Positions 27,001-30,000 of a stretch of 64,000 nucleotides of DNA are shown piece after piece (the stretch's first letter is position 1; the number at the start of each line of letters is the position of its first letter). The position numbers are program-made. Where the stretch lies: NCBI RefSeq assembly GCF_056746865.1, contig NZ_CM163382.1; one strand, written 5' to 3'.

Positions 27001-30000
27001 TAAACCAGAATACGCTTTCTTTGTCGCTGGGGAGTACGGTGCTGCCGGTATACATCAATTTGATGGTTTGACCGCGTTTAGCATCAATACGTGAAACGGG
27101 AGGTGTTGCCGTAAATGGTACATTAATGCTTCCCGGCTCAGCGTTATCGTCACCGGTATCCAGCCAGCTTTGTACTAACAGATGGCTATTGCCTTTATTC
27201 TCCAGGCGTACGCTAACGCTTTTTTGATCACTTTTATAAATGACGCGTGTACCGGAAATAACAATATCAGCCATAACAGGCATACTAAATGCCATACTAC
27301 TGGCAACACATAATGCGACAATATTCTTTTTATTTAACAAAATATACCATCCATGACATGAATTGTTTTCAAGACAAGGGGGCGACAATAGGTGTCGCAC
27401 CCTTGTAGTAATTTAAATCACCAACGAATAACTTAATTGTAGGTGATGGTGTAAGCTGTGTTGGTTCTTACATAACCAGCCGTTGCTGGTGTTGAGTCGT
27501 CTTCACGAACATAGGAGGCTTTGAAGTCAAAGACTGCAACATTATTGGTTAATGCTTTAGTGTAAGCATCAGATGCATTATTAATTTTGACTTGTTTAAC
27601 AGTGGTGCCGTCAATGTTGTGCAGGGCGATATTCACACCAGATGACGGGGTGGTGATGGACATATCGTTATTCAAAGTGCCACGACTGTTACCAAAGAAA
27701 ACTGAACCGAATGTCAGAGTCGGTTGGCCTCCCGGAGTCGCTTTGCTGCAGTCTACAGTAATGCTAAACGGTTTCGCTTTGGCACCGACAGCAGTTTCAG
27801 ATACACCAGCGGTAATTTCAGCAACCGTTGCAGTTTGCAGAAGAACCAGGCCATCTTGCTTGCCGCCATCAACTTTTGTTTCACAGGTGTTATCGCTAAC
27901 CAAGCCACTGATGTTAATCTGACCACCGTCCATATCAGCAGAAGCAGTACCTGCAACCATTGCCAGCATAAGACCAGACAGGGCAAAACCTAATTTTTTA
28001 GACATAATAATCCTTGAATTATATTCCATGAGTTTAACTACAATCGGGTGCTTTCAGACAAAGAACCCCGATAGAGAAAAATAGATTGTTTTGTTAATGA
28101 TGAATGTGAAGATTTACTGAATGTAACATCTGTTCATCACCAAGTGGGATATTGTGCATATTTAAATTTATATATCCACTTAATTCATCTTTAAGTAAAA
28201 CTTAATGTACAAAGCGGGAAAAATATTGTATGTGAGGCGGAAGGTGTTAACGGGGTATATAATATTAATTATGGTTGTAGCTTAGGGAATATATTAATTG
28301 CAATGGGGTAAGGCTATTTTTCGGAATTTATTTATATTCATGAAATCATTAAATCACCATTTGTTTAATTCATGAAATTTATTTATTTTTAATAAATTTC
28401 CTAATACTGTTCCATCAGGAAACACCAGCTCCGGCGCAATTTCAAACAGCGGCCACAGCATAAATCCACGATTCTTCATATCGTAGTGCGGAACGGTCAG
28501 GCGTTCGGTATTTATTACTTCATTACCAAATAGCATGATGTCGAGATCCAGTGTGCGCGGCCCCCAGCGTTCCGCTTTACGGACGCGACCTTGTTGTAAC
28601 TCAATACGTTGTGTGTGGTTGAGTAACTCTTCAGGTGCAAGAGAGGTTTCCAGCGCCACGGCTGCGTTTAAGTAATCGGGTTGATCTTGCGGCCCCAGCG
28701 GTGGAGTGCGGTAAAACGAAGAAACGGCAAGAATGTGGCTTTCAGGGATATCGCCTAATGCTTTCAGGGCAGCATTGACCTGCTCCAGCGGAGAGGCCAG
28801 ATTGCTGCCTATGGCAATATACGCCACTGTCATGCGGTACCCTCACGACGCGGTGCGCGTTTGCGTGGACGACGAGAACGGCGACGCGGTGACGGCTCTT
28901 CATCCAGCTCGTTGAGCATCCCTTTTTGATCTGGTGGCGCGGAAACCTGGAACTCCCCCCACCATTTCACAAGACGCTGCAGTTCAGCGTTACGTTCAAC
29001 TTCAGCTCGCAAGGCCAACAGGTCATAAGCAGCACGGAACTTAGGATGCTCCAGCAGTTTCCAGGCGCGTTTACCCTGACGTCGGGACATACGCAACTGC
29101 AACTGCCAGATATCGCGGGTTAACGTCGTCAGACGTTTCGGGATCGCCAGAGAACGGCAGGCTTCGTCCAGCACGTCGTTCATCGCCAGCGCGAAAGCGT
29201 CGTGATAGGTCAGGCCGCTTTCCTGGGCGATCTTCTGTGCCGTCTCCAGCAGTGGGTACCAGAACATGGCGGCAAACAGGAACGCCGGGTTCACGCGCAT
29301 ATCGTTATGGATACGCGTATCGGTATTCTTCAGCACCTGTTCAATGATCCGCTCCATCGGGCTGTCGCCATTTTCCGTGAAGTAGCGGGTAATGGTCGGG
29401 AACAGCGGCTGGAACAGGTGATATTCACACAGCAGATTATAGGTTTCGTAACCGTAGCCCGCTTGCAGCAGTTTCAAAGATTCTTCAAACAGACGTGCCG
29501 GTGGAATATCGTTCAGCAGGGTAGCGAGGCGAGGGATCGGTTCTGCGGTTTCAGGACTGATACGCATACCCAATTTGGCGGCAAAACGTACCGCGCGCAG
29601 CATCCGTACCGGATCTTCACGGTAGCGCGTTTCCGGGTTACCAATCAGACGGATAACGCCGTCTTTCAGATCCTTCATGCCGCCAACGTAATCACGGACG
29701 GTAAAATCCGCTACGCTGTAATACAGGCTGTTGATAGTGAAATCGCGGCGCTGGGCGTCTTCTTCGATGGAGCCGAAAATGTTGTCGCGCAGCAACATAC
29801 CGTTTTGCCCGCGTTGGGAGGTCGTGCGGTCGCTGACGTTACCTTCGTGATGTCCACGGAAGGTCGCAACTTCGATAATCTCCGGGCCAAACATCACATG
29901 AGCCAGACGGAAACGGCGACCCACCAGGCGGCAGTTACGGAACAGTTTACGTACCTGTTCAGGCGTGGCGTTAGTGGTTACGTCAAAATCTTTCGGCTTT

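What the first reader, a model, noticed from the sequence alone, without database searches (positions are those of the whole stretch)
28030..28353. Very AT-rich 320-bp region upstream of the fimbrial operon (candidate silenced promoter)
The region upstream of yadN is dominated by A/T runs and short repeated motifs (for example ATTCATGAAAT at 28337-28347 and 28369-28379). Composition like this is typical of nucleoid-protein-silenced promoters of cryptic fimbrial operons.
Basis: partly seen in the sequence, partly recalled or inferred. Interest (0 to 1): 0.3.

Follow-up and report, generated by a model that had tools for sequence, protein, structure and literature searches.

The report
H-NS-silenced yad fimbrial promoter region
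This is the very AT-rich control region in front of the E. coli Yad fimbrial operon, whose counterparts in other strains are already shown to be bound and switched off by the nucleoid protein H-NS, so the finding is real but ordinary.

Summary
The main observation holds. Window 28030-28353 has GC 0.306, against 0.514 for the whole window. It is the single most AT-rich stretch in the 64 kb and the most AT-rich of 18 ORF-free gaps.

Corrections:
- The annotated yadN start is 28005, so the true folK-yadN spacer is 28006-28353.
- The AT-rich tract continues into the last ~59 nt of folK, to about 28412.
- The quoted 11-mer sits at 28336-46 and 28368-78, one base off. Its second copy lies inside folK. 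It is no more than chance (p about 0.1) and is not conserved in other alleles.

- The K-12 yadN/folK spacer is a listed 'promoter island' bound by H-NS in all ChIP studies.
- A 205-bp CFT073 yadN promoter fragment rises more than 100-fold in an hns mutant. It maps by position to window 28219-28030.
- EC958, whose spacer is about 84% identical to this one, de-represses the whole yad operon without H-NS.

This allele itself is untested. The case rests on position, composition and its relation to EC958.

All seven alleles compared keep GC 0.24-0.34 although their sequences barely align. There are no GATC sites, no invertible element and no Rfam match.

Side notes: IS2 disrupts the tip-adhesin gene, and allelic divergence begins inside folK.

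The parts
28006..28353 (-). folK-yadN intergenic spacer, the regulatory region of the yad operon; 348 bp, GC 0.299
   Evidence: Boundaries come from the RefSeq annotation of the identical sequence in strain 118UI and from ORFs. It is the lowest-GC ORF-free gap in the window.
28006..28412 (.). Full AT-rich tract (407 bp, GC 0.283): the spacer plus the last 59 nt of folK
   Evidence: The K-12 promoter island 156927_379 likewise extends about 50 nt into folK (PMC3661553; K-12 coordinates).
28030..28219 (-). Positional equivalent of the 205-bp CFT073 yadN promoter fragment (-229 to -25) that is repressed more than 100-fold by H-NS
   Evidence: Primer sequences from S3 Table of PMC13245861 were mapped through alignment A3. 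GC is 0.316 here and 0.268 in CFT073. Identity is 87% to EC958 and 48% to CFT073.
28151..28178 (-). Candidate core promoter (inference only): -35 TGGATA at 28178-28173, 16-nt spacer, -10 CACAAT at 28156-28151. The predicted transcription start is near 28144.
   Evidence: My own sigma-70 weight-matrix scan of seven alleles. This is the only promoter-like site at the same alignment column (313) in all six yadN-type alleles. It lies inside the reporter-equivalent fragment. No transcription start data were found.
28165..28174 (-). 8/10 match (TATATAAATT) to the H-NS high-affinity consensus TCGATAAATT, overlapping the candidate promoter spacer
   Evidence: The consensus is recalled from Lang et al. 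2007.
28325..28398 (.). Three further 8/10 matches to the H-NS consensus, at 28325-34, 28376-85 and 28389-98
   Evidence: four matches lie within 234 bp, against about 1.2 per kb over the window. The enrichment is what the composition predicts.
28292..28340 (-). Conserved island 'block A' just downstream of the folK stop, with core AATATAAATAAATTC at 28338-28324; function unknown
   Evidence: It is the only part of the spacer that blastn aligns to CFT073-type alleles (H51-H55). It is one of only two strongly invariant blocks among the six alleles.
28004..28031 (-). Conserved yadN translation-initiation block (ATGGAAT..AAGGATT.TTATG), including the Shine-Dalgarno AAGGAT at 28015-28010
28336..28346 (+).
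   Evidence: Not above chance and not conserved.
28368..28378 (+). Copy 2 of the 11-mer, inside the folK coding sequence
27433..28005 (-). yadN, the major fimbrial subunit and first gene of the operon
   Evidence: Pfam Fimbrial PF00419; RefSeq annotation; 77-78% amino-acid identity to K-12 and EC958 YadN
28354..28833 (-). folK (HPPK), upstream and in the same orientation. Its last 18 codons plus stop (28354-28410) are allele-specific and AT-rich.
   Evidence: NCBIfam PRK10239, Pfam HPPK, C-terminal comparison
20144..28005 (-). yad chaperone-usher operon: yadN, chaperone, usher, yadM-like, yadK-like and yadC-like adhesin; there is no yadL. GC is 0.438 without IS2.

Best explanation
The region is the regulatory spacer between folK and yadN, and it carries the promoter of the Yad chaperone-usher fimbrial operon. 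I infer that its extreme AT-richness makes it a binding platform for H-NS. H-NS nucleates at sites rich in TpA steps that resemble ATAAATT, then spreads along the AT-rich DNA. This probably includes the 3' end of folK and the AT-rich distal yad genes. The filament blocks or traps RNA polymerase at the yadN promoter, so the operon stays off in ordinary culture. Expression would require counter-silencing, for example by host or serum cues, SlyA-type antagonists, or changes in temperature or oxygen.

What is shown here: position, composition, allele relationships, a high density of promoter-like sites, and the absence of phase-switch features.

What is shown in the literature for counterpart alleles: H-NS occupancy in K-12 and CFT073, and de-repression in hns mutants of K-12, CFT073 and EC958.

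What is inferred: that this allele behaves the same way, and the exact promoter (-10 CACAAT at 28156-28151).
For: - It is the lowest-GC stretch of the window.
- Synteny is folK, spacer, yadN, PapD-type chaperone, usher.
- The K-12 counterpart is a promoter island bound by H-NS in all ChIP studies (PMC3661553; PMC5797941).
- The CFT073 promoter-lux fusion rose more than 100-fold in delta-hns and was complemented. The EC958 yad genes were de-repressed in delta-hns (PMC13245861).
- The CFT073 reporter fragment maps to window 28219-28030.
- This allele is 83-87% identical to EC958's.
- All seven alleles keep GC 0.24-0.34 although identity is as low as 39-58%.
- Twelve promoter-like sites lie in 350 bp, against a mean of 2.2, which puts it in the top 1% of windows.
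- Four 8/10 matches to the H-NS consensus lie within 234 bp.
- SlyA overproduction raises yadN 2.4-fold in K-12.
Against: - There are no direct data for this allele. It is close to unalignable with the two alleles that have ChIP or reporter data (48-58% identity).
- The excess of promoter-like and H-NS-like motifs is no greater than the composition predicts. The tool's promoter scan found 3 sites against 2.7 in shuffles, and no H-NS match is better than 8/10.
- AT-richness in weakly constrained non-coding DNA could partly reflect mutation bias rather than selection for silencing.
- The serum response persisted in a delta-hns background (PMC13245861), so H-NS is not the only regulator.
- No ArcA or SlyA consensus was found in the spacer.
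Confidence: 0.85

Rival explanations
1. The tract is a passive AT-rich spacer, a recombination junction of a hypervariable locus. Its composition reflects relaxed constraint, mutation bias or donor composition, with no dedicated silencing role in this allele.
For: Allelic divergence starts abruptly inside folK and spans the whole yad locus. The spacer and the structural genes are mosaic: the spacer is 84% identical to EC958's while the proteins are only 46-78% identical. The motif excess equals what the composition predicts.
Against: The spacer (GC 0.30) is far more AT-rich than the yad genes (0.39-0.47) or other ORF-free gaps (median 0.43). Every allele type tested experimentally is bound or repressed by H-NS. 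H-NS binding depends on composition, so a tract like this would be bound whatever its origin.
Confidence: 0.06
2. Its main role is insulation. An H-NS and Rho-dependent termination zone stops read-through from the co-oriented pcnB-folK operon into yad, rather than controlling initiation at a yadN promoter.
For: folK and yadN have the same orientation. No intrinsic terminator follows the folK stop. The RNA there folds no better than shuffles, z = -0.34. A conserved island sits right after the folK stop. H-NS is known to assist Rho-dependent termination (general knowledge, not tested here).
Against: The CFT073 fragment from -229 to -25 lacks the folK end and block A, yet on its own it gives hns-dependent promoter activity. 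Initiation control therefore exists independently. The two roles are not mutually exclusive.
Confidence: 0.07
3. It is a phase-variation switch like those of type 1 fimbriae (an invertible element) or P fimbriae (a Dam/Lrp GATC switch). On this reading the repeated ATTCATGAAAT motifs would be regulator binding sites.
For: Many fimbrial operons are phase-variable. Each 11-mer copy contains the 8-bp palindrome TTCATGAA, and the copies are spaced 32 bp apart.
Against: There are no GATC sites in this or any of six other alleles. No inverted repeat of 14 nt or more was found, and no recombinase gene is adjacent. The 11-mer is within chance, one copy is coding, and it is not conserved. The literature states that Yad is not phase-variable (PMC13245861).
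Confidence: 0.01

Closest known systems
yadN promoter regions of E. coli K-12, CFT073 and EC958, repressed by H-NS (Korea et al. 2010 and Larsonneur et al. 2016, as cited in PMC13245861; Ellison et al. 2026, PMC13245861)
   Same: Same locus (folK-yadN spacer), same downstream chaperone-usher operon, same extreme AT-richness (GC 0.26-0.31), same conserved translation-initiation block and block A. It is 83-87% identical to the EC958 allele.
   Different: This is a distinct allele, found at 99% identity or more in 436 of 5,426 complete genomes. It is only 48-58% identical to the K-12 and CFT073 alleles that have ChIP or reporter data. The operon lacks yadL, its proteins are 46-78% identical to the K-12 and EC958 proteins, and its adhesin gene is interrupted by IS2.
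'Promoter islands' of E. coli K-12 (Panyukov & Ozoline 2013, PMC3661553); island 156927_379, yadN/folK
   Same: It is the positional counterpart of a listed island. It is about 350-400 bp long, extends into the folK 3' end, has a very high density of promoter-like sites on both strands (12 per 350 bp) and is associated with H-NS.
   Different: Islands were defined with the PlatProm algorithm and with RNA polymerase binding data on K-12. Here only a crude weight matrix was applied to a diverged allele, and the density is explained by composition.
Xenogeneic silencing of AT-rich loci by H-NS, e.g. other conditionally silent chaperone-usher operons (elf/ycb, sfm, yeh)
   Same: An AT-rich upstream region, silence in laboratory culture, de-repression in hns mutants, and counter-silencing by SlyA-type factors (PMC5797941).
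   Different: None in principle; this is one more example.
fimS invertible switch and the pap Dam/Lrp switch
   Same: Both are regulatory regions upstream of a fimbrial major-subunit gene.
   Different: There are no flanking inverted repeats, no recombinase gene and no GATC sites, so it is not a member.

Membership tests
H-NS-silenced (xenogeneic-silencing) promoter region | A tract of several hundred bp much more AT-rich than the genome | tested here: met
   GC is 0.30 over 348 bp against 0.514 for the window. It is the lowest of all 324-nt windows and of 18 ORF-free gaps.
H-NS-silenced (xenogeneic-silencing) promoter region | High-affinity nucleation motifs (like TCGATAAATT) or many TpA steps | tested here: inconclusive
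   Four 8/10 matches lie within 234 bp, and there are 48 TpA steps in 407 bp. No match is better than 8/10, and the enrichment is what the composition predicts.
H-NS-silenced (xenogeneic-silencing) promoter region | H-NS occupancy in vivo (ChIP) | not testable with these tools
   Published for the K-12 allele in all three data sets (PMC3661553, PMC5797941) and reported for CFT073 (PMC13245861). There are no data for this allele.
H-NS-silenced (xenogeneic-silencing) promoter region | De-repression when hns is deleted | not testable with these tools
   Published for the CFT073 reporter (more than 100-fold), for EC958 by qRT-PCR, and for K-12 (PMC13245861). EC958's spacer is 83-87% identical to this one.
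Yad fimbrial operon regulatory region (folK-yadN spacer) | Lies between folK and a yadN-type major subunit gene that is followed by a PapD-type chaperone and an usher | tested here: met
   NCBIfam and Pfam hits, RefSeq annotation of the identical sequence, and YadN 77-78% identical to K-12 and EC958.
Yad fimbrial operon regulatory region (folK-yadN spacer) | Sequence homology to a characterised yadN promoter region | tested here: met
   84% identity over 96% of the spacer to ST131/EC958-type alleles. Only block A and the ribosome-binding-site block are shared with K-12 and CFT073.
Promoter island (Ozoline group) | 300 bp or more with an exceptional density of predicted promoters on both strands | tested here: inconclusive
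   My own weight matrix gives 12 sites per 350 bp, against a mean of 2.2 and sd 2.15, in the top 0.9% of windows. PlatProm was not available, and the count is not above shuffles of the same composition. The K-12 counterpart is a listed island.
Promoter island (Ozoline group) | RNA polymerase binding that yields only short abortive RNAs | not testable with these tools
   This needs ChIP and 5'-end RNA-seq.
Phase-variable fimbrial switch (fimS type) | Inverted repeats flanking an invertible promoter segment, plus a nearby recombinase gene | tested here: not met
   No inverted repeat of 14 nt or more in 27700-28700; only imperfect AT-rich pairs. The neighbours are folK and yadN, with no recombinase gene.
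Phase-variable fimbrial switch (pap type) | Paired GATC (Dam) sites in the regulatory region | tested here: not met
   There are no GATC sites in this allele or in six others, against 4.1 per kb over the window.
Known structured RNA (Rfam) | A match to a covariance model | tested here: not met
   No match at E <= 1 in 27900-28500 on either strand. The RNA fold is no better than shuffles.

The most novel reading that the evidence does not exclude
The spacer might contain a discrete functional element that nobody has described. That element is the conserved island just after the folK stop (core AATATAAATAAATTC, 28338-28324, extending to about 28292). It is preserved across allele families whose flanking sequence, including the last 18 codons of folK, has diverged almost to randomness. 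It could be an H-NS nucleation or boundary site, or a 3'-end or insulator element that separates the essential pcnB-folK operon from the silenced yad locus. In addition, promoter alleles seem to reassort independently of the yad structural genes. That could give ExPEC lineages different Yad induction behaviour.
Probability: 0.15. Interest if true: 0.3.

Novelty: already known. Interest (0 to 1): 0.1.

Why it matters
Yad fimbriae contribute to ExPEC colonisation of the bladder and of tissue during bloodstream infection (PMC13245861). Their expression is gated by H-NS silencing of this upstream region. Recognising the region in a new strain adds no new biology. It confirms that a third, fairly common allele family (about 8% of complete genomes at 99% identity or more) keeps the AT-rich silencing architecture. 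In this particular strain, IS2 disrupts the tip-adhesin gene, so de-repression would probably not give a fully functional adhesin.

Tried and rejected
- The 11-mer repeat as a functional motif: rejected. It is within chance, one copy is coding, and it is not conserved.
- Phase switch: rejected. There are no GATC sites, no inverted repeats and no recombinase gene.
- Structured RNA or intrinsic terminator after folK: none found.
- Small ORFs of 21-26 aa in the spacer: there is no obvious conservation in the aligned alleles; I did not test this formally and did not pursue it.
- ArcA (GTTAATTAAATGTTA) and SlyA (TTAGCAAGCTAA) consensus searches with up to 3 mismatches: no hit in the spacer. Both consensus sequences were recalled from memory.
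- The primary K-12 papers (Korea 2010, Larsonneur 2016) are not held, so their results are cited only through PMC13245861 and PMC5797941.
- The main text of Hustmyer 2022 does not mention yad. The CFT073 ChIP statement therefore rests on Ellison et al.
- No published transcription start for yadN was found. The supplements of Singh 2014 are not held.
- A genome-contig scan for the conserved yadN start (AAGGATTNTTATGTCTAAAAAATTAGG) returned only one E. coli contig, with too little upstream DNA. No deeper phylogenetic footprint was possible.
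Full report
WHAT IS THERE

The window is E. coli chromosome. Positions 27400-28900 are 100% identical to strain 118UI, and I used that strain's RefSeq annotation. On the minus strand the order is pcnB (28830-), folK (28354-28833), a 348-bp spacer, and then a chaperone-usher fimbrial operon. The operon begins with yadN (27433-28005), followed by a PapD-type chaperone, an usher and three further subunit genes. Family assignments were checked independently:
- folK matches NCBIfam PRK10239 and Pfam HPPK.
- YadN matches Pfam Fimbrial.
- The chaperone matches PapD_N and PapD_C.
- The usher matches Usher, PapC_N and PapC_C.

The annotated yadN start is the ATG at 28005-28003, preceded by AAGGAT at 28015-28010. 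That start is invariant in the six yadN-type alleles aligned.

CHECKING THE OBSERVATION

The composition claim is solid.
- 28030-28353 has GC 0.306, and the true spacer 28006-28353 has GC 0.299. The window as a whole has GC 0.514.
- Only 128 of 63,677 windows of 324 nt are as AT-rich. All belong to the single low-GC cluster at this locus.
- Among 18 ORF-free gaps of 120 bp or more, this one is the most AT-rich. The median gap GC is 0.43.
- The AT-rich tract does not stop at the folK stop codon. The last 59 nt of folK have GC 0.19, against 0.52 for the rest of the gene.

The repeated motif is a minor and partly mistaken detail.
- The second copy is inside folK.
- An exact 11-mer repeat appears in 9-13% of composition-matched random sequences.
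- The non-coding copy is not conserved in other alleles.

WHAT IS KNOWN ABOUT THIS LOCUS

- K-12: the yadN/folK spacer is one of the 78 'promoter islands' (156927_379). These are regions dense in promoter-like sites that bind RNA polymerase but are transcriptionally silent. This one is scored as H-NS-bound in all ChIP studies compared (PMC3661553, Table 1).
- K-12: the SlyA-regulon paper lists yadN as H-NS-bound in the Grainger, Kahramanoglou and Oshima data sets. It also reports a 2.4-fold rise when SlyA, an H-NS antagonist, is overproduced (PMC5797941).
- CFT073 and EC958: Ellison et al. 2026 (PMC13245861) showed that a CFT073 yadN promoter-lux fusion is almost silent in wild type. It rises by more than two orders of magnitude in delta-hns and is restored by hns in trans.
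- The same paper reports that all yad genes are de-repressed in delta-hns of both CFT073 and EC958. YadN protein appears only without H-NS. Serum and infected tissue induce the operon, and Yad is not phase-variable.
- The paper cites Korea 2010 and Larsonneur 2016 for H-NS repression in K-12, and Larsonneur 2016 for the temperature and ArcA effects. I could not read those two papers.

HOW THIS ALLELE RELATES TO THE TESTED ONES

The spacer is highly polymorphic in E. coli. Among 5,426 complete genomes:
- K-12-type spacers occur in 3,056 genomes.
- CFT073-type spacers occur in 481.
- A TW11681-type spacer, in front of a different major subunit, occurs in 156.
- The family containing this window's allele occurs in 1,232. 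Of these, 436 match at 99% or more, 25 at 95-99%, 47 at 90-95%, and 717 at 80-90%. The sampled hits in the 80-90% band are ST131/EC958-type.

In a seven-allele alignment (A3), this allele's identity to the others over the spacer is:
- 83% to EC958, and 87% over the part equivalent to the CFT073 reporter fragment;
- 56% to K-12;
- 58% to CFT073.

I mapped the published reporter primers (S3 Table of PMC13245861) onto the alignment. The H-NS-responsive CFT073 fragment (-229 to -25, 205 bp, GC 0.27) corresponds to window 28219-28030 (190 bp, GC 0.32). That is the half of the spacer nearest yadN.

Despite this divergence, every allele keeps a spacer GC of 0.24-0.34. So the conserved property is composition and position, not sequence. 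That is what H-NS recognises.

ANATOMY AND LIKELY MECHANISM

Shown here:
- The tract has 13 runs of A/T only, up to 25 nt long, and 48 TpA steps in 407 bp.
- Four 8/10 matches to the H-NS high-affinity consensus TCGATAAATT all keep the ATAAATT core. They lie at 28165-74, 28325-34, 28376-85 and 28389-98. The consensus is recalled from Lang et al. 2007.
- With a simple sigma-70 weight matrix the spacer has 12 promoter-like sites per 350 bp. The window mean is 2.2, which puts it in the top 1%. Comparable densities occur only in the AT-rich distal yad genes.
- The excess is what the composition predicts. This matches the 'promoter island' picture.
- Only one promoter-like site is found at the same alignment column in all six yadN-type alleles: -10 CACAAT at 28156-28151, with -35 TGGATA at 28178-28173 in this allele. 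In K-12 and CFT073 a 10-bp insertion supplies a different -35 hexamer at the same 16-nt spacing.
- That site lies inside the reporter-equivalent fragment, and one H-NS-like site overlaps its spacer.

Inferred: H-NS nucleates on these sites and spreads over the tract, into the folK 3' end and probably along the AT-rich operon (GC 0.44; the distal genes are 0.39-0.41). It then occludes or traps RNA polymerase at the yadN promoter. Relief requires counter-silencing. The promoter assignment is a hypothesis, because no transcription start data were found.

RIVALS

- A pap-type or fim-type phase switch is excluded. There are no GATC sites in any of the seven alleles, no inverted repeat of 14 nt or more and no recombinase gene.
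- No Rfam family matches. The RNA downstream of folK folds no better than shuffled sequence, z = -0.34. No intrinsic terminator follows folK.
- That last point leaves open a second, compatible role: H-NS and Rho-dependent insulation of yad from pcnB-folK read-through.
- A purely passive 'junk spacer' reading is unlikely. The spacer is far more AT-rich than the yad genes or other gaps, and every allele tested experimentally is H-NS-controlled.
- ArcA and SlyA consensus searches found nothing in the spacer.

THINGS NOTICED BEYOND THE FINDING

1. Allelic divergence of the yad locus begins inside folK. FolK is identical up to ...VFPDG. The last 18 residues then differ between allele families:
   - TVLGNLLKINKFHELNKW in this window;
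   - EMLRQILHTRAFDKLNKW in K-12;
   - LSLVEALQAKGFNELDKW in CFT073.
2. Two islands stay conserved in an otherwise scrambled spacer. One is the yadN translation-initiation block. The other is 'block A' (core AATATAAATAAATTC, 28338-28324), about 15 nt after the folK stop. Block A is the only segment that blastn aligns to CFT073-type alleles. Its function is unknown.
3. The operon here has six genes and no yadL. Its proteins are only 46-78% identical to those of K-12 and EC958, although the spacer is EC958-like. This suggests recombinational mosaicism.
4. An IS2 element (20821-22151, 5-bp target duplication GAATT) interrupts the yadC-like adhesin gene. It is absent from 118UI, and the junction is not found in any of the 5,426 complete genomes.

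VERDICT

The compositional observation is real and highly significant. The repeat detail is not. The interpretation as an H-NS-silenced fimbrial promoter region is supported by published ChIP, reporter and hns-mutant data on counterpart alleles. It extends to this allele by position, composition and 83-87% identity to the EC958 allele. This is an already known kind of element at an already characterised locus, so interest is low. The only mildly open points are the conserved block A and the exact promoter.

Noticed in passing
window 20816-22156: An IS2 element (1331 bp, 20821-22151) interrupts the yadC-like tip-adhesin gene of the yad operon. It is flanked by a 5-bp GAATT target duplication, and its TnpA and TnpB match the NCBIfam IS2 models. 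It is absent from the otherwise near-identical strain 118UI. The junction was found in none of 5,426 complete E. coli genomes.
   Followed up: yes
window 28354-28410 (folK 3' end): Allelic divergence of the yad locus starts inside the essential gene folK. FolK is identical up to ...VFPDG, then its last 18 codons differ between allele families. In this allele those codons are very AT-rich (GC about 0.19). One allele (GF131) even has a 13-codon longer folK.
   Followed up: partly
window 28292-28340: A conserved island (core AATATAAATAAATTC at 28338-28324) lies about 15 nt downstream of the folK stop. It is preserved across allele families whose flanks are nearly unalignable, and it contains an 8/10 match to the H-NS consensus. 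Its function is unknown.
   Followed up: partly
window 20144-28005: This strain's yad operon has six genes and no yadL. Its proteins are only 46-78% identical to the K-12 and EC958 Yad proteins, while the upstream spacer is 84% identical to EC958's. This suggests the promoter region and the structural genes reassort by recombination.
   Followed up: partly
window 22000-24000: The distal yad genes (adhesin, yadK-like, yadM-like; GC 0.39-0.41) carry promoter-like site densities as high as the upstream spacer, at 11-14 per 350 bp. They are likely further H-NS targets or sources of spurious intragenic promoters.
   Followed up: no
window 11321-11450: This short ORF-free gap (130 bp, GC 0.308) is as AT-rich as the yadN spacer. 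By coordinate comparison with EC958 it lies between the divergent genes gcd and hpt.
   Followed up: no
window 28027-28029: An ATG 24 nt upstream of the annotated yadN start is conserved in all six yadN-type alleles. It is in frame with yadN here and in CFT073, but in K-12 it is followed by a stop after four codons. No Shine-Dalgarno sequence precedes it, so it is probably not a start codon.
   Followed up: partly
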